Below are positions 6,208 to 29,897 of a DNA stretch of 64,000 nucleotides, piece by piece (position 1 is the first letter of the stretch; every line of letters begins with the position of its first letter). A program made the position numbers and the translations under genes. This stretch comes from a virus: IMG/VR virus record IMGVR_UViG_3300027418_000370; one strand, given 5' to 3'. The notes under the pieces were generated by a model, which saw nothing but the letters and a program-made list of their open reading frames with translations, did no database searches and was not told the origin of the DNA.

Positions 6208-6704
6208 TGGCAAATACTTGTAGAACAGATGTAAAAATTGTTGCTTCAAAAGAAGCAGTTGACTTTTTGTATGGAAAGTTTGAAAATATGAATGATGGGA
6301 AGTATCCAAATGAAAAGGAAACTCCACATATTGTAGATGTATTTGGTGCTGATGCTGAATTATTTATTGATAAAGTAGGTTCAAAGTGGATTACAATTTA
6401 CGATTATAGCACCTATGAGAATGAATTTGAAGTTAGCTTTGAATCAGCTTGGTATCCACCATCAGATCTATTGAAAGAAATGCATCGACAGTTGATGGCT
6501 ATTGATCCGGATGCTACATTTACAGCACGTTATTGGGATGAAGCATACGATCCTATTGGAGTAATTAAGATTACAGATGCCGGCCAGTACCTAACTGTTG
6601 AGACCGAACCTGAGCCTGAAGACGAATTCGAAGGTGAGTACTACTGGGATGATGTAATCGATCCAGAGTTTGCTCGACTAGAAAGAAAATTAGGAATAGC
6701 GTAA
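6207..6704 (+). CDS. YubB/Api92 (DUF1281-like) ferredoxin-fold protein
   Basis: MAN-C start and FESAWYPP motif. Confidence 0.6.
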   Translation: MANTCRTDVKIVASKEAVDFLYGKFENMNDGKYPNEKETPHIVDVFGADAELFIDKVGSKWITIYDYSTYENEFEVSFESAWYPPSDLLKEMHRQLMAIDPDATFTARYWDEAYDPIGVIKITDAGQYLTVETEPEPEDEFEGEYYWDDVIDPEFARLERKLGIA

Positions 6705-6728
6705 GCCTATACGCTTAAAATACCTGGC
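6698..6728 (+). promoter_or_regulatory. Putative H-type pseudoknot in the queC leader
   Basis: AGCGTA/TACGCT stem; loop GCC can pair with GGC after an A-rich linker. Confidence 0.4.
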
Positions 6729-6748
6729 AGTTATAAATTATATTTAAA

Positions 6749-7573
6749 ATGGCAAAACACGTTGTTGTTAGTCTTTCAGGAGGGATGGACTCCTCTACGT
6801 TACTTCTAAAAGCTCTTAAAGAGTTTGATACAGTAACAGCAATGTCTTTTGATTACGGTCAAAAGCACAGAGTAGAGCTTGAAAGAGCTCAAGAGTTGGT
6901 AAAGTACTTGAGTGATAACGGTCACTCTGTTAATTACCGAGTAATCAAACTAGACGGCTTGGTTGACCTGCTCAACTCGGCTCTAGTAACAGGTGGTGCT
7001 GAAGTACCTGAAGGTCATTACGCAGAAGAGAATATGAAAGCTACTGTTGTACCGAACCGAAACAAAATCTTCAGTTCAATTTCTCAAGCTGTAGCACTTT
7101 CTATTGCAAATGAAACTCAGGAAGAAACTTCCATTGCGTTGGGCATTCATGCTGGTGATCATGCGATCTATCCGGACTGCCGACAGGAATTTCGGGATGC
7201 AGATGACGCTGCTTTCCGCACTGGTAACTGGGACGCTGAGCGCGTATCTTATTGGACTCCTTATCTTGAAGGCGATAAGTTTACTATTCTAGAAGACGGA
7301 CTGGTATTATGTGAGAAGCTAGGAATAGACTTTGATGAAGTTTATAAGCGTACTAACACCTCTTATAAGCCAATCAAGTACTATCACCGTCCAGAGACTA
7401 ATGCCTGGACTTGGTACTCAGACTACAAATCAGCTTCTTCAGTAGAGCGTATTGAAGCTTTTATTAAGCTAGGACGACCTGATCCTGTAGCGTACGCTGA
7501 TGAGACCGGCCCAGTGAGCTGGGAGGTAGCACGTGAGCATGTTGAAAAAGTTTTAGCAGCACACGCAAATTAA
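6749..7573 (+). CDS. queC: 7-cyano-7-deazaguanine synthase
   Basis: SGGMDS, FDYGQKH, VPNRN, HAGDHAIYPDCR. Confidence 0.96.
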   Translation: MAKHVVVSLSGGMDSSTLLLKALKEFDTVTAMSFDYGQKHRVELERAQELVKYLSDNGHSVNYRVIKLDGLVDLLNSALVTGGAEVPEGHYAEENMKATVVPNRNKIFSSISQAVALSIANETQEETSIALGIHAGDHAIYPDCRQEFRDADDAAFRTGNWDAERVSYWTPYLEGDKFTILEDGLVLCEKLGIDFDEVYKRTNTSYKPIKYYHRPETNAWTWYSDYKSASSVERIEAFIKLGRPDPVAYADETGPVSWEVAREHVEKVLAAHAN

Positions 7574-7576
7574 TTA

Positions 7577-7616
7577 GGGGGGAGCTTGTCTCCCTCCCTA
7601 TTTATTCTTATATTAA
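7577..7616 (+). terminator. Hairpin overlapping a promoter
   Basis: GGGGGGAG...CTCCCTCCC hairpin with embedded TTG-N20-TATATTAA. Confidence 0.5.
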
Positions 7617-7646
7617 GAGTGTCGGAGCACCACTATAAAAACACCG
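7617..7646 (+). promoter_or_regulatory. preQ1-I-like riboswitch aptamer (copy 2)
   Basis: AGTG-TCGGAGCAC-CACT-ATAAAAA-CACC; heads the unit containing queD/queE. Confidence 0.6.
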
Positions 7647-7647
7647 G

Positions 7648-8241
7648 ATGAAAAAGTTACTACTATTATTACCTCTGCTCTGGGCTTGTGAAACGATTGA
7701 GCCCTATGTTCCTGAACCTTGTCAGGAATGTACTACTATTCATAGAGTAGATACTATTCAACATCCTGGAACTTATTATCAAGACGGATACTGGCATTTA
7801 CAATATTCAGGTATAAATTACTTCCAGGTTATCGGTCAGTTAGATTCCCTACATCCTCAATATGTTATAAATGGAGTACCGCTACTTCAAGTAGTATATG
7901 ATAGCGATACCTGGTATGTATTTGATACCATTGCTATGCAAATACCTCTGTACTCTCCATTTACTTCCCAATATACTTCCCCAAGCTTTAATTACCCTAT
8001 CTCAACAGGAGATACTACAATCTATATTACAAATCCTAACTACATTATAAATGCAGTAGGTTATACGTTTGGAAGTACAAACTTTGTGAATGCTATGCAC
8101 ACATACCAGCCCCGGTGTGAAGTACTGGTGTTTGAAGAGATGGTGGGAGATACGATTAATGTCTTCACAAGAACGCGTTATAACTACGATCTAGGTACTC
8201 AGATAATAGTAAACGATACAATTAAAGTTATAGTAGAATGA
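7648..8241 (+). CDS. Lipoprotein
   Basis: MKKLLLLLPLLWAC lipobox. Confidence 0.75.
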   Translation: MKKLLLLLPLLWACETIEPYVPEPCQECTTIHRVDTIQHPGTYYQDGYWHLQYSGINYFQVIGQLDSLHPQYVINGVPLLQVVYDSDTWYVFDTIAMQIPLYSPFTSQYTSPSFNYPISTGDTTIYITNPNYIINAVGYTFGSTNFVNAMHTYQPRCEVLVFEEMVGDTINVFTRTRYNYDLGTQIIVNDTIKVIVE

Positions 8242-8444
8242 AAAAACAGTTATTAGTAGAGCCTGTTCTTCCGAAAAGTAAGAACATTGAAAAGATGCCT
8301 GATCAGAAATGGCATCAAATTATCTCATTTATTAAATCCGGAGTCCGTATTCTTGGTTACGCACTGCTTATTGTTGATATCCCAACAGCAATGGTGGTAC
8401 TGGTCTTGAGTGAGGCAGTCGGCATAATCGAAGAATTAGTATGA
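8238..8444 (+). CDS. Small membrane protein
   Basis: C-terminal hydrophobic hairpin ending GIIEELV. Confidence 0.65.
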   Translation: MKKQLLVEPVLPKSKNIEKMPDQKWHQIISFIKSGVRILGYALLIVDIPTAMVVLVLSEAVGIIEELV

Positions 8445-8701
8445 AGTATTTGTATTTCTCAGCACCTTGGTGCGGTCCTTGTAGAATGTTAGGTCCAACA
8501 ATGGAAAAAGTAGCAGCAGAAGGAATTGCTGTAGAAAAAATTAACATCGATACGGAAGAGCTCCTAACGATGGAATACACAGTCCGCAGTGTACCTACTG
8601 TAGTACTGATTGATGATTCTGGAAAAGAATTTGCTCGTACAGTTGGCGCTAAGCCATTAAGTCACTATATTGAACAATATAATAATTTTACAAATGTATA
8701 A
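8441..8701 (+). CDS. trxA: Thioredoxin
   Basis: WCGPC; VRSVPT cis-Pro motif. Confidence 0.9.
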   Translation: MKYLYFSAPWCGPCRMLGPTMEKVAAEGIAVEKINIDTEELLTMEYTVRSVPTVVLIDDSGKEFARTVGAKPLSHYIEQYNNFTNV

Positions 8702-9152
8702 GTCAAGAAAGAAGTTTGATGGCTTTAGTACTTGCTTCCGTCAATGGAAAGCGAATACTACACACTGTCAGTACCTACACGGCTATGATGTAGAGTTTGA
8801 AGTAACGTTTGAAGGAGATCTCGATCACCGTAACTGGGTATGGGACTTCGGAGGTATGAAGCGAGCTAAGAACCTGATCGACGGTATGCAACCTAAAGAA
8901 TGGATGGAGCATATGTTCGATCATACTGTAGTTGTAGCAGAAGACGATCCTGAACTAGATAACTTCAGAGATATGGCCGACAGAGGCGTTATTCAGTTAC
9001 GAGTAGTAGAGGCAGTAGGTGCAGAGAAATTTGCTGAATTTCTTTACCACAAGCTAAATGACTTCGTACAGACAGAGACAGACGGCCGAGTTAAGGTCAT
9101 TAAAGTTAAATTTATGGAGAACCACAAAAACTCAGCAATCTATGGCGCTTAA
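8694..9152 (+). CDS. queD: 6-carboxytetrahydropterin synthase
   Basis: C-x-x-LHGY, WVWDFG, FDH, AEKFA; que context. Confidence 0.9.
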   Translation: MYKSRKKFDGFSTCFRQWKANTTHCQYLHGYDVEFEVTFEGDLDHRNWVWDFGGMKRAKNLIDGMQPKEWMEHMFDHTVVVAEDDPELDNFRDMADRGVIQLRVVEAVGAEKFAEFLYHKLNDFVQTETDGRVKVIKVKFMENHKNSAIYGA

Positions 9153-9918
9153 GAGAATTGAAGATTATAATAAGGTACTGCCGATTGTAGAGCTTTACCG
9201 ATGTGTACAATCAGAGGGTAGTCGTTTTGGACGTCCTACTATCGCTGTACGTACTACAGGATGTACTCACCGCTGCTACTTCGGTGAAGGAGGTTGGTGT
9301 GATAGCTGGTATACCTCTATCCATCCAGAGAAAGGTGGTTATTCATTTAACGATATTATTAAGATTTACGATGAGAATCCTCACGTAAAGGAGATGATGC
9401 TAACAGGAGGTAGCCCAACAATGCACCCAGCCTTAGTAAATGAGATTACTCACTTTGCTAAAGAAAGAGGTATTATTGTTACTATTGAGACTGAAGGTTC
9501 TCACTTCCTTGAGACGGACTATCCTCTTGATCTTATCTCTCTATCTCCTAAGTTCTCTAATAGCGTACCCGTAGTAGGAGCTGTTACACCTCAAGGCGCT
9601 ATTGCAGATGAGAAGATGATTAAGCAACATAACAAGTTCCGTATCAACAAAGATGCTATCCGTCAGACTTTGGACTATCATACTGATTACCACTTTAAGC
9701 CGGTATGGGACGGTAGCGCAGCGAATCTAGTAGAGATTGAAGCATTTAGGGTTGAGATGAATATTCCTAAAGACAAGACTTTTGTTATGCCTGCAGGTGA
9801 TACTCGTGAGACTTTAATTGAAATGTACCCAATCGTATTTGAGATGTGTGCCGAGCACGGTTACAATATGACCGGACGTGATCACATCATTGCCTACGAT
9901 ACTAAGAGAGAAGTATAA
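9142..9918 (+). CDS. queE: 7-carboxy-7-deazaguanine synthase (radical SAM)
   Basis: QSEG..GRP..VRTTGCTHRC...WCDS, LTGG, IETEG, SLSPK. Confidence 0.93.
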   Translation: MALKRIEDYNKVLPIVELYRCVQSEGSRFGRPTIAVRTTGCTHRCYFGEGGWCDSWYTSIHPEKGGYSFNDIIKIYDENPHVKEMMLTGGSPTMHPALVNEITHFAKERGIIVTIETEGSHFLETDYPLDLISLSPKFSNSVPVVGAVTPQGAIADEKMIKQHNKFRINKDAIRQTLDYHTDYHFKPVWDGSAANLVEIEAFRVEMNIPKDKTFVMPAGDTRETLIEMYPIVFEMCAEHGYNMTGRDHIIAYDTKREV

Positions 9919-13008: not shown

Positions 13009-13038
13009 AGGTGTCGAAGCACCACCTAAAAAAACAAA
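13009..13038 (+). promoter_or_regulatory. preQ1-I (type II)-like riboswitch aptamer in the folE leader
   Basis: AGGTG-TCGAAGCAC-CACCT-AAAAAAA-CAAA; starts about 4 nt after the promoter element TATATTAA (12997-13004) and ends 4 nt before the folE ATG. Confidence 0.72.
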
Positions 13039-13042
13039 TTAT

Positions 13043-13753
13043 ATGGCAGATAAAAAACGTTATGATGTAGAACTCGCTCAAGCCGGGTTCGCTAATGGTG
13101 TCTCTTCTCAACTGGCTGAGAAGTTTAAAGTTCATTCTATGAACTCTATGCACTTAACAGATCAAGAGAAGCATACTATTATTGAGAATGCTGCAAAGGC
13201 ATTCGGAGAATTCCTAGATGCTCTAGGATGTGACTGGCGTGATGACCCTAACTCATCTGATACTCCTCGTCGAGTAGCTAAGGCTTATGTAAACGACTTA
13301 TGGGCAGGACGATTCAATCCTATGCCTGAGATCACAGCCTTCCCTGCTGATGGTTATGATGGTATTGTATTTGAGGGTAATATTCCTTTGACCTCGATGT
13401 GTTCGCATCACCACCAGACTATTCAAGGTCGAGTTCATATTGCTTACATTCCAGGTCCTGGAGGTAAGGTAATCGGTCTATCTAAGCTCAATCGTATTGT
13501 AGAGCATTTCGGACGTAGAGGTGCTATTCAAGAGCAGCTTACTGTTGCTATTCATAATGCAGTTCATACTGTTTGTGAAGGTAATGTAGGTGTAGCAGTT
13601 ATGGTAGAAGCTACTCACAATTGTGTATCATGCCGCGGTACTAAACACGCTGGTGCGTCAATGAAGACTTCTAAGCTATCAGGTAGCTTTATGTACGAAG
13701 ACTCAGCACGAGCAGAATTTTATGAATTTGTTAAAGGTTACGCATGCAAATGA
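13043..13753 (+). CDS. folE: GTP cyclohydrolase I
   Basis: DTPRRVAK, SMCSHH, GLSKLNR, QEQLT, HNCVSCRG. Confidence 0.97.
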   Translation: MADKKRYDVELAQAGFANGVSSQLAEKFKVHSMNSMHLTDQEKHTIIENAAKAFGEFLDALGCDWRDDPNSSDTPRRVAKAYVNDLWAGRFNPMPEITAFPADGYDGIVFEGNIPLTSMCSHHHQTIQGRVHIAYIPGPGGKVIGLSKLNRIVEHFGRRGAIQEQLTVAIHNAVHTVCEGNVGVAVMVEATHNCVSCRGTKHAGASMKTSKLSGSFMYEDSARAEFYEFVKGYACK

Positions 13754-14450: not shown

Positions 14451-15270
14451 GATTGCACACGAGAGTCCTATTGCTAGCTTTGACACTATTCAGCAGTATA
14501 CGGATTATGATTACGCTTTAGTACATCTCTTTGAAGAGAACGAAACTTATTTAGATAAGTTTGTAGAAGCACGAGATAAAGGACGAGAGATTATTCTCGA
14601 TAACTCTATCTTTGAATTAGGAAAAGCTTTTGATTCAGAACGCTTTGCTTTCTGGATTGATTATTTAAAGCCTACCTGGTACATCGTACCTGATGCATTA
14701 GAGAATGTAAAGCGTACTTGTGCTAATATGGCTGAGTGGAACTTTAAGTATGCAGATCATCTAGCAGCACCTAGTAAAAAGATTGGAGTACTACAGGGAA
14801 AGACTTACTCTGAGCTTATCAATTGCTATGACTACATGATTAATATAGCAAAGGTAGATATGGTGGCTATCTCTTTCGATTACAGTTATTACGAACAGCT
14901 CGTACCACACCCTAACAAGTATGTTAGCTGGATGCTAGGCAGAGTTGTGCTCTTAGGTAAGATGTTACGTGATGGAGTAATCAACCCAGATATCCCTCAC
15001 CACCTACTAGGCTGTGGACTTCCTCAAGAGTTTGCTTTCTATAAAGACTACGATTGGATCTACTCACTAGATACTTCTAACCCAGTAGTACACGGTTTGT
15101 TGGGAATCGAGTATAAAGATCAAGGGTTGTGGGATAAGGCATCAATCAAGTTATTTGAGATGATTAATATGACTCCTACCTCTGAGCAGGTTACTTCAGC
15201 AGTTTATAATGTTCAACGCTTTAGATGGTTCGCACATGGTAGCAACTCGTCCGTGGATAGCATTCTTTAG
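14443..15270 (+). CDS. dpdA: Divergent TGT-fold 7-deazaguanine transglycosylase (DpdA3-like)
   Basis: IILDNS, VPD, GVLQG, HHLLG, SLDTS motifs in TGT order; que context. Confidence 0.78.
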   Translation: MVKIAHESPIASFDTIQQYTDYDYALVHLFEENETYLDKFVEARDKGREIILDNSIFELGKAFDSERFAFWIDYLKPTWYIVPDALENVKRTCANMAEWNFKYADHLAAPSKKIGVLQGKTYSELINCYDYMINIAKVDMVAISFDYSYYEQLVPHPNKYVSWMLGRVVLLGKMLRDGVINPDIPHHLLGCGLPQEFAFYKDYDWIYSLDTSNPVVHGLLGIEYKDQGLWDKASIKLFEMINMTPTSEQVTSAVYNVQRFRWFAHGSNSSVDSIL

Positions 15271-15796
15271 TCAGACTGGATCTGAGATTGTTCAGGTTAG
15301 TAAGCAGTTAGGTCGCTGGCCTGACCTTATTATTACTAATATCAGGCCTTCTCATTTACGTACTATACATCCTGAGATTCCTACAGACCTATTAAAGTAT
15401 ACTCAGAATAGACCTGAGGAGCATGAGCTTGTATGGCTGATGAGTGCAATAAGTGATAACCCTGTTGTAACTTTACACGGATGGTTAAGAGTAATGCCTG
15501 CTTCTATCTGTAATCGCTATGAAATCTATAACGGACATCCAGGATTGATTACTAAATATCCAGACCTAAAAGGAAAAGATCCTCAATATAGAGCCTGGGA
15601 AGGTAACTATAAGACTGCTGGCTGTGTTATTCACAAAGTAACTGCCGGAGTAGATGAAGGAGAAGTTCTAGTGGAGCGAGAAAGTATACATAAGATGTTG
15701 CCTAAGAACGATATTTTTCGTATCTTACATGACACATCAGTAGAGATGTGGATAGAATTTTTACATAATAAACTATGGTTAGACGAATTGCATTAG
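15236..15796 (+). CDS. dpdN: PurN-like formyltransferase (DpdN-like, preQ1 formylation)
   Basis: FSQTGS, LHGWLRV, NGHPGL, GCVIHKVTAGVDEG; lies between dpdA and queF. Confidence 0.8.
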   Translation: MVATRPWIAFFSQTGSEIVQVSKQLGRWPDLIITNIRPSHLRTIHPEIPTDLLKYTQNRPEEHELVWLMSAISDNPVVTLHGWLRVMPASICNRYEIYNGHPGLITKYPDLKGKDPQYRAWEGNYKTAGCVIHKVTAGVDEGEVLVERESIHKMLPKNDIFRILHDTSVEMWIEFLHNKLWLDELH

Positions 15797-16293: not shown

Positions 16294-17208
16294 ATGGAAG
16301 AAGTAAAGAACTACAATGCAGTCGTTGAGATTGCTGGTAAACACCTCGGTAAGGTAGGTGGAGAAGGTTACTCAGATCAGTACAATGCTGAGTTGCTAGT
16401 AGCAGTACCTCGTTATTTAAACCGAGAAGCTTACGGAATTGAGGAGAGTAATCTTCCATTCGTAGGAGTAGATGCTTGGAACGCTTATGAAGTTTCAGCT
16501 ATTACTAAAAAAGGTCAGCCTGTAGCAGGTATGTTAAAGATTGTATGCCCAGCTAATACAGAGTTTCACGTTGAGTCAAAGTCTATCAAATTATACTTGA
16601 ACTCTTTGAATATGACTCCGATGGGTCAGACAGCTAAGGAGTGTATCAAGGAGATTGAAACAACAGTAGCTAAAGACCTAACTGACCTACTAGGAGGAAA
16701 TGTAACCTGTACCTTCTTCGGCAATACATACACTCCAGAGTTTGAGTTTGATGGCTTTACAGACTTAGGTGCAACAGTAAACCTTGACAACATTGAGTTT
16801 ACAGCCTTTAAGTCTGATGCAGGTCAGCTTGAGATTGGCGGCAATCTTCCAATGTCTGTTACAACTAAAGTAAGTTCTAACTTGCTACGTAGTAACTGCC
16901 GAGTAACTAACCAGCCTGACTGGGGTGATATCTACATCCATATGCAAGGTCATAACTCAATTAAGCTTGAGTCACTAGCCAAGTATATCGTTAGTCACCG
17001 TACAGTATCTCACTTCCATGAAGAGATCTGTGAGATGGTATTTACTCACCTTCAGCAAGCCTATCAACCTGAGAAGCTTATGGTAGCATGTTTATATACA
17101 CGTCGTGGTGGATTGGATATTAATCCTATTCGAGCTACACATAAAGATATGATCCCAGGATGGTTTACTGATTCGGGTAAACGAATGAGAAAAACTTTAC
17201 GTCAATAA
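16294..17208 (+). CDS. queF: NADPH-dependent preQ0 reductase, bimodular type
   Basis: VESKSIKLYLNS, LLRSNCRVTNQPDW, FHEEICE, YTRRGGLDINP. Confidence 0.96.
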   Translation: MEEVKNYNAVVEIAGKHLGKVGGEGYSDQYNAELLVAVPRYLNREAYGIEESNLPFVGVDAWNAYEVSAITKKGQPVAGMLKIVCPANTEFHVESKSIKLYLNSLNMTPMGQTAKECIKEIETTVAKDLTDLLGGNVTCTFFGNTYTPEFEFDGFTDLGATVNLDNIEFTAFKSDAGQLEIGGNLPMSVTTKVSSNLLRSNCRVTNQPDWGDIYIHMQGHNSIKLESLAKYIVSHRTVSHFHEEICEMVFTHLQQAYQPEKLMVACLYTRRGGLDINPIRATHKDMIPGWFTDSGKRMRKTLRQ

Positions 17209-24099: not shown

Positions 24100-24185
24100 G
24101 CTACTGTGGTGAAATAGGTAGACACGAGGGACTTAAAATCCCTTGGCCAGTGATGGTCGTGCCGGTTCGATTCCGGCCAGTAGTA
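24100..24185 (+). tRNA. tRNA-Leu(TAA)
   Basis: GCTACTG/CAGTAGT acceptor, anticodon loop CTTAAAA, long variable arm, GTTCGATTC. Confidence 0.93.
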
Positions 24186-24231
24186 CACGGAAACCCATAT
24201 ACGGTTCTTTGACATGTTGGATAGATAGAAT

Positions 24232-24313
24232 GCGGATGTGGTGTAATTGGTAGCCACGCCAGACTTAGGATCTGGTGCTTAATCGCGTGGGGGTTCGAGT
24301 CCCTTCATCCGCA
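24232..24313 (+). tRNA. tRNA-Leu(TAG)
   Basis: GCGGATG/CATCCGC; CCAGA-CTTAGGA-TCTGG; GTTCGAGTCC. Confidence 0.93.
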
Positions 24314-24319
24314 CATAAT

Positions 24320-24422
24320 GAGAGGAGGAAAAGGTAAAATCCAAAGGTACGGTCGACGGGTCGTTTAAAACCTGAGGTACGGACTCTGATGCTGTAAGCG
24401 CGCTAAAGGAGTGAAGCCTCTC
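24320..24422 (+). ncRNA. Unassigned structured RNA between tRNAs
   Basis: GAGAGG/CCTCTC closing stem with internal hairpins. Confidence 0.4.
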
Positions 24423-24430
24423 TATAATAT

Positions 24431-24504
24431 GGTCCGATAGCTCAGCTGGATAGAGCAACAGCCTTCTAAGCTGTCGGTCGAAGGTTCGAATCCTTCTCGG
24501 ATCA
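24431..24504 (+). tRNA. tRNA-Arg(TCT)
   Basis: GGTCCGA/TCGGATC; ACAGC-CTTCTAA-GCTGT; GTTCGAATCC. Confidence 0.95.
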
Positions 24505-24596
24505 CTACGCAGTCAGATGCATCTGGTTTCTCTATTCCATTTAAAGATAGAGTGGAGCTACAGTGGCAGGTTATGGTTGTCCTCTAACAACCAGCT

Positions 24597-24669
24597 CGGG
24601 ATGTGGCGCAAGTGGTAGCGCACCTGGTTTGGGACCAGGGGGTTGGAGGTTCGAGTCCTGTCATCCCGA
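24597..24669 (+). tRNA. tRNA-Pro(TGG)
   Basis: CGGGATG/CATCCCG; CCTGG-TTTGGGA-CCAGG; one T-stem mismatch. Confidence 0.92.
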
Positions 24670-24691
24670 CTAATTATTAAATGTTTTAAAC

Positions 24692-24856
24692 ATGAAAACA
24701 ATCATTAAGTACTTCTTTCCGGTAATGTACCTGCTTTACATTGTAGGTATTGGTTTAAACGTATCAGTTGGCGACTATTCAGATGCTGGCTGGATCTTCA
24801 GCGCACTACTCTGGATGTTTAACTACCATATGCTTTACCTAAAGATTACTAAATAA
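24692..24856 (+). CDS. 54-aa membrane protein inside the tRNA array (not in ORF track)
   Basis: MKTIIKYFFPVMYLLYIVGIGLNV...; two hydrophobic helices. Confidence 0.6.
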   Translation: MKTIIKYFFPVMYLLYIVGIGLNVSVGDYSDAGWIFSALLWMFNYHMLYLKITK

Positions 24857-24985
24857 AGAACCCAGACGTGTGCAAAGAGACTGAGTCTAGCCTCTAAATC
24901 CACTTCGGTGGTTGACTTTCGGGAAAAGATAGTGAGTGGGGAGTACGCCTACCGGACGGCGTCTCATTGATAACCTCCCCTATAA

Positions 24986-25058
24986 GCCTCCTTAGCTCAG
25001 TTGGTAGAGCCACTGATTTGTAATCAGTAGGTCGTTGGTTCGAGTCCGACAGGAGGCT
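24986..25058 (+). tRNA. tRNA-Thr(TGT)
   Basis: GCCTCCT/AGGAGGC; CTGA-TTTGTAA-TCAG; GTTCGAGTC. Confidence 0.95.
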
Positions 25059-25061
25059 CAG

Positions 25062-25146
25062 AGAGTAGGACTAATAGTTCAGCATACCGCTGCAGCGGTA
25101 AAAGTAAGTTGCTGTTAATAGGACGCCGAATCCTAACGCCTATTCT
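25062..25146 (+). ncRNA. Unassigned multi-stem RNA between tRNA-Thr and tRNA-Tyr
   Basis: AGAGTAGG/CCTATTCT, CAGCA/TGCTG, TACCGC/GCGGTA and TAGGA/TCCTA stems. Confidence 0.5.
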
Positions 25147-25153
25147 TTTTTAC

Positions 25154-25236
25154 TGGAAGGTGGGTGAGTGGTTAAAACCGGCAGACTGTAAATCTGCTCC
25201 CTTACGGGTACGGCAGTTCGAATCTGTCCCTTCCAA
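25154..25236 (+). tRNA. tRNA-Tyr(GTA)
   Basis: TGGAAGG/CCTTCCA; GCAGA-CTGTAAA-TCTGC; long variable arm. Confidence 0.9.
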
Positions 25237-25242
25237 CAAATT

Positions 25243-25316
25243 GCGCTTATAGCTCAGTTGGTTAGAGCATCCGACTCATAATCGGCAGGTCCTAGGTTCA
25301 AACCCTAGTAGGCGCA
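25243..25316 (+). tRNA. tRNA-CAT (probably Ile2/lysidine type; Met possible)
   Basis: GCGCTTA/TAGGCGC; CCGA-CTCATAA-TCGG. Confidence 0.9.
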
Positions 25317-29342: not shown

Positions 29343-29381
29343 GAGAGGGTGGCTTCGGTCACCCTTTTTTCGTATATTAAG
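29343..29381 (+). terminator. Terminator overlapping a promoter
   Basis: AGGGTGGC-TTCG-GTCACCCT-TTTTT followed by CGTATATTAA. Confidence 0.8.
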
Positions 29382-29384
29382 GTC

Positions 29385-29897
29385 ATGGAAAGTGTTATGA
29401 AGTACGACGAAAAGGATCAGTGTCCTTATCAACCTATCCACACCGAAGAGTGGTTAGAGGCTTTTTTTAAGAAAAACTATTTTAAGATGCCCTATAACCG
29501 CTTTATGTGGTGGAAGAGCTATACTCCTAAGACTCGTCCATTGACCGGTAAGGCTTCTCCTCTAGAGCGAGTTAAGAATGGAGACTTTGATCCTGCTCCT
29601 TATAAGTTTGAAGCTCAGTTGGTAGAGCATCGTCTACGCCGTAAGTGGTTTGAGCTTCAAGGAGACTGGCAGAAGTTCTTAGAGGTGTGTGCTGTAGATC
29701 TAGCTCGACGTAAACGTCTCTTAGAAGATCATGAGAAGGAAGAGAATCGCCGGTTAGAAGGCTTCTTTAAGTACGTAGGACGTATCTTCGGGATGAACCG
29801 GGATGAGATTATGCTTCACTTAGAGAGCTTTGCCGGTGAGACTGTACTTGAATTTTATAACTTTCTCCATGAGAAATACGATGATAAACCGTATTAA
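29385..29897 (+). CDS. Hypothetical protein
   Basis: ORF after promoter. Confidence 0.7.
   Translation: MESVMKYDEKDQCPYQPIHTEEWLEAFFKKNYFKMPYNRFMWWKSYTPKTRPLTGKASPLERVKNGDFDPAPYKFEAQLVEHRLRRKWFELQGDWQKFLEVCAVDLARRKRLLEDHEKEENRRLEGFFKYVGRIFGMNRDEIMLHLESFAGETVLEFYNFLHEKYDDKPY

What the first reader, a model, noticed from the sequence alone, without database searches (positions are those of the whole stretch)
7617..7647. Second preQ1-like aptamer heads the queD/queE unit but sits on a lipoprotein gene
Seen: GUGUCG(G/A)AGCACCAC...AAAAACA is shared with the folE leader; I saw the motif only at these two places, both inside the que region. G9 can pair with C33 (CACC tail), the inverse of the C9-G33 pair of the Tte aptamer. 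The gene immediately downstream is an unrelated lipoprotein, followed by trxA, queD and queE. Inference: either genes were inserted between the switch and its original target, or translational coupling passes control downstream. P1 is only 4 bp and the nearest promoter may start inside it, so this copy could be decaying.
Basis: partly seen in the sequence, partly recalled or inferred. Interest (0 to 1): 0.7.

Follow-up and report, generated by a model that had tools for sequence, protein, structure and literature searches.

The report
Phage preQ1-like riboswitch, lipoprotein gene inserted
A 30-base RNA knot that looks like a shrunken preQ1 riboswitch sits just before a phage operon for making a modified DNA base; in this phage a foreign lipoprotein gene has slipped in between the switch and its usual first gene, yet the switch sequence is still under selection.

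Summary
The motif is at 7618-7647 and again at 13010-13042, and nowhere else in the 124.6-kb virus record.

It belongs to a conserved phage RNA family of 72 distinct sequences. The 4-bp P1 stem is 99.7% paired and shows compensatory changes. The loop is UCGNAGNNC, the same hexamer as in the T. tengcongensis preQ1-I aptamer. A C sits before the P1 3' strand, followed by an A-rich tail and then CA.

Rfam RF00522 does not detect it: 9.8 bits at best against a cut-off of 39. I therefore call it a compact variant, not a catalogued member.

Across relatives, this copy normally sits directly before a small uncharacterised protein I call X, then queD and queE.

The lipoprotein gene is an insertion found in one subclade, and there G9-C33 replaces U9-A33. 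The aptamer is 28/28 identical to a relative whose flanking DNA is only 68-80% identical, so it is not decaying here. In more distant lipoprotein-first relatives it is degenerate or absent.

Overlapping stop and start codons could pass control downstream. One caveat remains: the local promoter-like box predicts a transcript start inside P1.

This scan had already noted such leaders on this genome and on others.

The parts
7577..7597 (+). Terminator-like G+C hairpin after queC. It would have to be read through for queC transcripts to carry the intact aptamer.
   Evidence: 8-bp stem, 6 GC pairs, then CTATTTATTC; folded
7586..7616 (+). Promoter-like TTG-N20-TATATTAA box. It ends 1 nt before P1, so the predicted start (about G7621) lies inside P1.
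   Evidence: The same TTG-N20-TATATTAA spacing occurs at the folE copy. TATATTAA is enriched in the window (15 found against 6.6 expected). At 29373 the box is followed 4 nt later by an ATG.
7618..7647 (+). preQ1-I-like aptamer (copy A). P1 is 7618-7621 with 7631-7634. U6 is 7622 and C7-G11 are 7623-7627. L2 is 7628-7629 and the recognition-position C is 7630. The A-rich L3 is 7635-7641. C30 is 7642 and the P2 3' strand runs 7642-7646. G7625 pairs with C7645.
   Evidence: (41.7 bits, E 6e-6 with the family model R1)
7648..8241 (+). 197-aa lipoprotein (MKKLLLLLPLLWAC lipobox), inserted in this subclade. Predicted all-beta sandwich of unknown function.
   Evidence: no Pfam or PHROG match; 14 unnamed homologues; only generic Ig-like matches, TM 0.3-0.45
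8238..8444 (+). Small protein X (68 aa), the canonical first gene behind this aptamer in relatives. Its start ATG overlaps the lipoprotein stop (ATGA).
   Evidence: 69 of 92 motif hits precede X; helical hairpin, pLDDT 83; 980 clusters
8441..8701 (+). Thioredoxin. Its start overlaps the X stop (ATGA).
8694..9152 (+). QueD (6-pyruvoyl-tetrahydropterin synthase family). Its start overlaps the end of trx.
9142..9918 (+). QueE (radical SAM). The likely start at 9142 overlaps the end of queD.
13010..13042 (+). Second copy of the aptamer, the folE leader (P1 GGUG/CACC, loop UCGAAGCAC).
6749..7573 (+). QueC, immediately upstream. A possible source of read-through transcripts.

Best explanation
Bases 7618-7647 encode a compact, phage-specific derivative of the class I preQ1 riboswitch aptamer. 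It is an H-type pseudoknot with a 4-bp P1, a 9-nt loop UCGGAGCAC, a 7-nt A-rich tail, and C30 plus a short P2 that ends 2 nt before the AUG.

Proposed mechanism. When the phage's own pathway product accumulates (most likely preQ1, possibly preQ0), the ligand is read by the C at 7630. It stacks between the G7621-C7631 pair and the G7627-C7642 pair, and the A-rich tail docks on P1. The folded knot then buries the whole unstructured A-rich leader and the bases next to the start codon. In a Shine-Dalgarno-blind Flavobacteriia-type host this should block 30S loading, making it an OFF switch.

Targets. The ancestral and usual target is the operon X-queD-queE. In this subclade a lipoprotein gene was inserted right behind the aptamer, so the switch now gates the lipoprotein's start codon directly. 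X, trx, queD and queE would be gated through translational coupling at overlapping stop and start codons.

Shown: the motif, its family, P1 covariation, synteny, the insertion, the conservation contrast, and the co-occurrence with QueF. Inferred: ligand identity, OFF logic, coupling, and that the transcript carries an intact P1.
For: Family and structure. The 72 distinct family sequences have P1 99.7% paired. Pair 1 is AU 42, GC 18, UA 10. Pair 3 is UA 58, AU 14. No shuffle out of 500 reached the observed covariation score, and slid controls collapse.

Ligand-contact positions. The invariant positions are U6, G8, A10, G11, the C before the P1 3' strand, and the A-run followed by C-A. The loop hexamer UCGNAG equals UCGCAG in the published Tte aptamer sequence (PMC10639078).

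Gene context. First genes behind the 92 pattern matches found: X 69, FolE 12, QueE 3, QueD 2, lipoprotein 3, and 3 cut or unclear. Synteny is motif-X-QueD-QueE in 30 of 30 diverse loci. All 19 motif-positive folE loci with enough flank also carry QueF, DpdA-like and DpdN-like genes, whereas 30 of 34 motif-negative loci lack them.

Insertion. The near relative L005 has identical terminator and promoter DNA but U9/A33 and no lipoprotein. The window, L087 and L008/9 have G9/C33 plus the lipoprotein.

Selection. The aptamer is 28/28 identical to L008/9, while the upstream 60 nt are 68% identical and the lipoprotein CDS 78-80%.

Logic. The leader has no competing stable fold (MFE -2.5 kcal/mol). 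Junctions overlap. Bacteroidia ribosomes ignore SD sequences, and initiation there is tuned by mRNA structure (PMC7797042 and PMC6847099).
Against: Rfam RF00522 gives no hit at this site and 9.8 bits (cut-off 39) at the folE copy. It gives nothing for more than 10 other family members.

No binding data exist. P2 beyond G11-C30 is weakly supported family-wide: N9-N33 is paired in 51 of 72 sequences, which is close to what an A-rich tail would give by chance.

The local TTG-N20-TATATTAA box predicts a start near G7621, inside P1. An intact aptamer may therefore need read-through of the queC terminator.

In more distant lipoprotein-first relatives the aptamer is degenerate (L241, 10.7 bits) or absent (L242-244). 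Control of a lipoprotein-first operon is therefore dispensable in some lineages.
Confidence: 0.6

Rival explanations
1. Orphaned or decaying copy. After the lipoprotein insertion and the promoter's move to within 1-3 nt of P1, the mRNA starts inside P1 and the aptamer no longer folds. Its sequence persists only through recent common ancestry.
For: The promoter-like box ends at 7616 and the predicted start is near 7621. In other clades the box lies 14-20 nt upstream of P1. The aptamer is degenerate in L241 (loop UAGAAGGAAAAC, 10.7 bits) and absent in L242-244, which are also lipoprotein-first. This copy scores at the low end of the family (41.7 bits).
Against: The aptamer is 28/28 identical between the window and L008/9, although the flanks are 68-80% identical. 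The double change U9-A33 to G9-C33 keeps the pair. All family-invariant positions are intact. Read-through from queC could supply the full aptamer.
Confidence: 0.2
2. A structured leader that binds no metabolite. It could be an operator hairpin for a phage translational repressor, or a 5' stability element shared by two operons.
For: No catalogued riboswitch model matches. Only P1 is proven by covariation. A small conserved protein of unknown function (X) always travels with it.
Against: The invariant unpaired positions coincide one-for-one with the preQ1-I ligand-contacting and tail positions. The motif is confined to 7-deazaguanine biosynthesis genes and to QueF-positive clusters. Loop L2, which is variable in preQ1-I, is also the variable part here: CA, AA, UU, UA, CC.
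Confidence: 0.12
3. The same aptamer fold, but the ligand is another 7-deazaguanine such as preQ0, CDG or formyl-preQ1 base.
For: L2 is one nucleotide shorter than in Tte, and P1 and L3 are shorter. The predicted DNA base of this phage type is formyl-preQ1, since a formyltransferase and QueF are present.
Against: The recognition C and its stacking pairs are those of preQ1-I. The motif occurs only where QueF, which makes preQ1, is present. That association is confounded by phylogeny.
Confidence: 0.25

Closest known systems
preQ1-I riboswitch of Thermoanaerobacter tengcongensis (type 1 according to PMC8222354; translational OFF switch)
   Same: Small H-type pseudoknot. L1-P2 hexamer UCGNAG (Tte has UCGCAG). 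C immediately 5' of the P1 3' strand. G-C closing pair of P1. A-rich L3 followed by C-A. A position 9-33 pair, inverted here to G-C. The aptamer's 3' end abuts the translation start region.
   Different: P1 is 4 bp, not 5. L2 is 2 nt, not 3. L3 is 7 nt, not 9. There is no Shine-Dalgarno sequence to sequester because the host type is SD-blind. It scores far below the Rfam cut-off. It is phage-borne, with two copies per genome.
preQ1-I riboswitch of Bacillus subtilis queC (type 2 according to PMC8222354; transcription terminator)
   Same: Same P1/L1/P2/L2/L3 order, an AUAAAAA(A)C tail, and control of que genes.
   Different: The Bsu loop is 12 nt and acts through a terminator. No terminator follows the phage aptamer, and the ATG is 6 nt after C30.
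Rfam RF00522 (PreQ1) covariance model
   Same: cmscan aligns the folE copy end to end with it.
   Different: 9.8 bits against a gathering score of 39. There is no hit at 7618-7647 or in 8 further loci with more than 10 instances.
Other preQ1-I-like leaders before phage queD/queE noted earlier in this scan (e1-5408637, e1-5730317 and others; AI notes, not literature)
   Same: Small pseudoknots in front of phage 7-deazaguanine genes that Rfam misses.
   Different: Those notes describe 46-120-nt leaders, several read as ON switches or as having changed pockets. I did not compare the sequences.

Membership tests
preQ1-I riboswitch (Rfam RF00522) | Scores at or above the curated gathering score (39 bits) of the family covariance model | tested here: not met
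   No hit at 7590-7670 with E up to 10. The folE copy scores 9.8 bits. Nothing was found in 8 loci holding more than 10 instances.
preQ1-I riboswitch (Rfam RF00522) | P1 stem-loop supported by covariation (5 bp in Bsu and Tte) | tested here: met
   The 4-bp P1 is 99.7% paired in 72 distinct sequences, with two pairs showing double changes. It is one pair shorter than the canonical stem.
preQ1-I riboswitch (Rfam RF00522) | Ligand-contacting nucleotides: U in L1, C just 5' of the P1 3' strand, A at the end of the A-rich L3, and G-C pairs above and below the pocket | tested here: met
   U6, the C at 7630, the A-run, G11 and C30 are invariant or nearly so. The closing G-C of P1 is invariant. The positions were mapped on the published Tte and Bsu sequences. 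Their contact roles are taken from my own knowledge of the crystal structures.
preQ1-I riboswitch (Rfam RF00522) | P2 pseudoknot between the loop and the 3' tail | tested here: inconclusive
   G11-C30 never varies. N9-N33 is UA 39, UG 7, GC 3, GU 2 and unpaired 21. At this site CGGAG/CACCG gives 4 Watson-Crick pairs. G9-C33 co-varies with the lipoprotein clade.
preQ1-I riboswitch (Rfam RF00522) | Binds preQ1 or preQ0 | not testable with these tools
   Needs in-line probing, ITC or a reporter assay.
preQ1-I riboswitch (Rfam RF00522) | Sits in leaders of queuosine/7-deazaguanine synthesis or transport genes | tested here: met
   86 of 92 matches precede X (itself followed by queD-queE), folE, queE or queD. 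All motif-positive clusters carry QueF.
Bacterial lipoprotein (gene 7648-8241) | Signal peptide ending in a lipobox L-x-[AS]-C | tested here: met
   MKKLLLLLPLLWAC in the window and LLWSC in L087 (C14 is invariant). No dedicated predictor was run.

The most novel reading that the evidence does not exclude
This is a distinct, phage-only subclass of preQ1-type riboswitch adapted to hosts whose ribosomes ignore Shine-Dalgarno sequences. It represses by burying the A-rich leader and start region, not an SD sequence. Together with a second, unrelated conserved pseudoknot before queC, it places all three units of the phage's DNA-hypermodification pathway under RNA sensors. It has also been co-opted to put a moron (a surface lipoprotein) and an uncharacterised small protein family (X, about 980 clusters) under metabolite control.
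Probability: 0.3. Interest if true: 0.8.

Novelty: new variant of a known kind. Interest (0 to 1): 0.66.

Why it matters
Phages that replace guanine with 7-deazaguanines must balance a costly GTP-consuming pathway. A metabolite-sensing RNA in front of folE and of X-queD-queE would be the first described feedback control of a phage DNA-hypermodification pathway. I found no paper describing one.

It would also show how a preQ1-I fold can work without a Shine-Dalgarno sequence. At about 30 nt it would be among the smallest natural aptamer scaffolds.

The locus gives a natural series showing what happens to a riboswitch when a foreign gene lands behind it: intact, then retuned (G9-C33), then degenerate, then lost.

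Finally, the family flags protein X as an unrecognised component of 7-deazaguanine gene clusters.

Tried and rejected
Dead ends:
- Rfam at gathering and at E up to 10 gave no usable preQ1-I, -II or -III hit.
- Pfam and PHROGs gave nothing for X or the lipoprotein. The ESM Atlas gave only unnamed viral clusters.
- Foldseek on the lipoprotein model gave only generic Ig-like sandwiches.
- The McCown 2014 paper was not held under the id I tried.

Readings considered and rejected:
- An alternative hairpin GUGU/GCAC is the MFE fold. I rejected it as the conserved structure because clades with L2 of AA, UU, UA or CC cannot form it, while P1 always forms.
- A contiguous P2 register fits this site but not the family. 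The Tte-like register with position 31 unpaired fits better.
- A bacterial origin was not found. The exact-pattern scan of 185,579 species genomes gave one chance hit and one phage-like contig binned in a Verrucomicrobiales MAG.

Full report
OBSERVATION

The 15-mer GTGTCGRAGCACCAC occurs exactly twice in the window, at 7619 and 13011. It occurs only there in the whole 124,656-base virus record.

Read as RNA, the first site has these parts:
- P1: A7618-G7621 pairing with C7631-U7634.
- A 9-nt loop, UCGGAGCAC.
- A 7-nt tail, AUAAAAA.
- C7642 followed by ACCGG.
- The ATG at 7648.

The second site heads folE, whose ATG is at 13043. The genes after the first site are listed below.

| Gene | Coordinates | Evidence |
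|---|---|---|
| 197-aa lipoprotein | 7648-8241 | |
| Thioredoxin | 8441-8701 | |
| QueD | 8694-9152 | |
| QueE | 9142-9918 | |

QueC ends at 7573, just upstream. Further downstream are a formyltransferase (15209-15796) and QueF (16294-17208). The phage can therefore make preQ1. Its nearest named relatives are Flavobacterium phage immuto and Cellulophaga phage phiST.

IS IT A CATALOGUED RIBOSWITCH?

No. Rfam finds only tRNAs at gathering thresholds. Searching 81 bases around the site at E up to 10 gives no preQ1 hit. The folE copy reaches 9.8 bits against a cut-off of 39. Eight further loci holding more than ten instances give nothing.

IS IT A REAL STRUCTURED RNA?

Yes. I fetched 80 viral contigs through FolE homology, without using the motif to select them. 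About 25 of them carry the motif in the folE leader. Their P1 variants are GGUG/CACC, GGAG/CUCC, AGUG/CACU, UGAG/CUCA and UGUG/CACA. Many of them carry a second copy 2-4 kb upstream.

A covariance model built from 22 sequences finds at most two copies per locus and none in the other folE clades or in phiST. On 72 distinct sequences, P1 is 99.7% paired. Pair 1 is AU 42, GC 18, UA 10. Pair 3 is UA 58, AU 14. No shuffle out of 500 reaches the observed covariation score, and sliding the partners destroys it.

The invariant unpaired positions are the U after P1, G8, A10, G11, the C just before the P1 3' strand, the A-run, and then C-A.

Comparison with the published aptamer sequences (PMC10639078) shows the following:

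| Feature | This family | T. tengcongensis (Tte) |
|---|---|---|
| Loop hexamer | UCGNAG | UCGCAG |
| P1 | 4 bp | 5 bp |
| L2 | 2 nt | 3 nt |
| L3 | 7 nt | 9 nt |

The order of parts, P1-L1-P2-L2-C-P1'-L3-P2', is the same as in preQ1-I. L2, which is variable in preQ1-I, is also the variable part here: CA, AA, UU, UA or CC.

P2 is less secure. G11-C30 never varies. N9-N33 is paired in 51 of 72 sequences, which an A-rich tail would nearly give by chance. At this site, however, CGGAG can pair with CACCG.

WHAT DOES THIS COPY NORMALLY CONTROL?

A 19-base pattern scan of IMG/VR gave 91 stretches of DNA, in which I found 92 matches. The first gene behind the motif is shown below.

| First gene behind the motif | Count |
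|---|---|
| Small protein X (61-107 aa) | 69 |
| FolE | 12 |
| QueE | 3 |
| QueD | 2 |
| Lipoprotein | 3 |
| Cut or unclear | 3 |

X carries the motif PD(P/A)KxHQxxSFxKSxIR and ends in SExVGIxEELV. In 30 of 30 diverse loci the order is motif, X, QueD, QueE, often with a second motif before FolE further on.

The window's ORF 8238-8444 is X. X has no Pfam or PHROG family. It is predicted as a helical hairpin with pLDDT 83. It has about 980 clusters at 50% identity, all small proteins with the domain at the C-terminus. Some lie next to HPRT-like genes, or appear fused to QueC on short contigs.

THE LIPOPROTEIN IS AN INSERTION

The lipoprotein gene is found behind the aptamer only in the window, its near twin L087/L163 (FolE 100%), and L008/L009.

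L005 has FolE 94% identical and essentially the same queC end, terminator and promoter-like DNA. It has the aptamer directly before X and no lipoprotein.

All lipoprotein-bearing contigs have G9 and C33. All other copies of this type have U9 with A33 or G33. The pair was therefore kept through a double change that came with the insertion.

Between the window and L008/L009 the aptamer is 28/28 identical. The 60 nt upstream are 68% identical and the lipoprotein CDS is 78-80% identical. This points to purifying selection on the aptamer in this subclade.

More distant lipoprotein homologues tell the other half of the story. In L241 (61% identical) the same promoter-aptamer region survives, but the loop is UAGAAGGAAAAC. 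It scores 10.7 bits, against 32.6-50.6 for the family. In L242-244 (66% identical) there is no aptamer at all.

The lipoprotein itself has a lipobox, only unnamed homologues, and a generic beta-sandwich model.

MECHANISM

The leader has no stable competing fold: the MFE is -2.5 kcal/mol and the centroid is open. C30 lies 6 nt before the AUG, and there is no Shine-Dalgarno sequence.

Bacteroidia ribosomes do not use SD sequences, and initiation there is tuned by leader structure and upstream nucleotides (PMC7797042 and PMC6847099).

I therefore infer an OFF switch. Ligand-induced knotting would hide the A-rich leader and the start region.

Every junction from the lipoprotein to queE has overlapping stop and start codons: ATGA, ATGA, an 8-nt overlap and an 11-nt overlap. 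Repression at the lipoprotein start could therefore spread downstream by translational coupling. This is inferred, not shown.

All 19 motif-positive folE loci with enough flank also carry QueF, DpdA-like and DpdN-like genes. Of the 34 motif-negative loci, 30 lack them. This favours preQ1 as the ligand, but the association is confounded by phylogeny.

MAIN CAVEAT

A promoter-like TTG-N20-TATATTAA box ends at 7616. The same box with the same spacing precedes the folE copy, and TATATTAA is enriched in the window.

If transcription starts about 5 nt after the box, the folE aptamer begins at +1, but this copy would start near G7621, inside P1. That start position is suggested by the box at 29373, which is followed 4 nt later by an ATG.

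In most other clades the box lies 14-20 nt upstream of P1. An intact aptamer here may thus depend on read-through of the hairpin at 7577-7597 from queC. Only 5'-end mapping can settle this.

NOVELTY

I found no paper on riboswitches in phage 7-deazaguanine clusters. The exact pattern is absent from 185,579 representative bacterial genomes, except for one phage-like contig in a MAG and one chance hit.

The scan's own notes had already flagged the folE copy of this genome and similar leaders in other phages. I did not use their content as evidence.

I rate this a new variant of a known kind. The fold and the likely ligand are those of preQ1-I, but the catalogued model does not recognise it.

Noticed in passing
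window 6699-6730 (queC leader; ATG at 6749): A different conserved leader RNA precedes queC: (A)GCGU-NN-GCCUAU-ACGC(U)-A/U-rich-AAUACCUGGCA. It is found before queC in 27 distinct related sequences. The 4-bp stem is 100% paired, with double changes at 3 of 4 pairs (GCGU/ACGC, GGAU/AUCC, ACGU/ACGU, GUGU/ACAC). Loop GCC could pair with the invariant downstream GGC. The base before the 3' strand is U, not C. There is no Rfam hit. It may be a second, unrelated sensor in the same pathway.
   Followed up: partly
window 8238-8444 (protein X): A small uncharacterised protein family with about 980 clusters at 50% identity and no Pfam or PHROG match. AF2 predicts a helical hairpin. The invariant motif is P..K.HQ..SF.KS..R ... 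SE..GI.EELV at the C-terminus. It is the commonest gene directly behind the aptamer and always sits next to queD-queE. On short contigs it is also seen beside an HPRT-like gene, and it appears fused to QueC (P0146).
   Followed up: partly
window 29373-29387: A TATATTAA box is followed 4 nt later by an ATG (TATATTAAGGTCATG) after a terminator hairpin. This may be a leaderless mRNA. I used it as a guide to where this promoter type starts.
   Followed up: no
window 5431, 7609, 12997, 20715, 29373: A recurrent terminator hairpin followed by TTTTC(G/A)TATATTAAG. This is probably the phage's standard promoter module. TATATTAA occurs 15 times against 6.6 expected.
   Followed up: partly
L179 (NYWG01000135.1, labelled Verrucomicrobiales MAG): This 5.9-kb contig carries two copies of the aptamer plus protein X, and looks like a phage contig mis-binned into a bacterial MAG.
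   Followed up: no
window 24100-25316: A cluster of seven tRNA genes on the + strand.
   Followed up: no
L003 (Flavobacterium phage immuto_2-6A): The cultured reference phage has the folE-leader aptamer (44 bits) in the 16.6-kb stretch examined, but no copy A and no X gene. The uncultured immuto-like contigs L010-L012 have both.
   Followed up: partly
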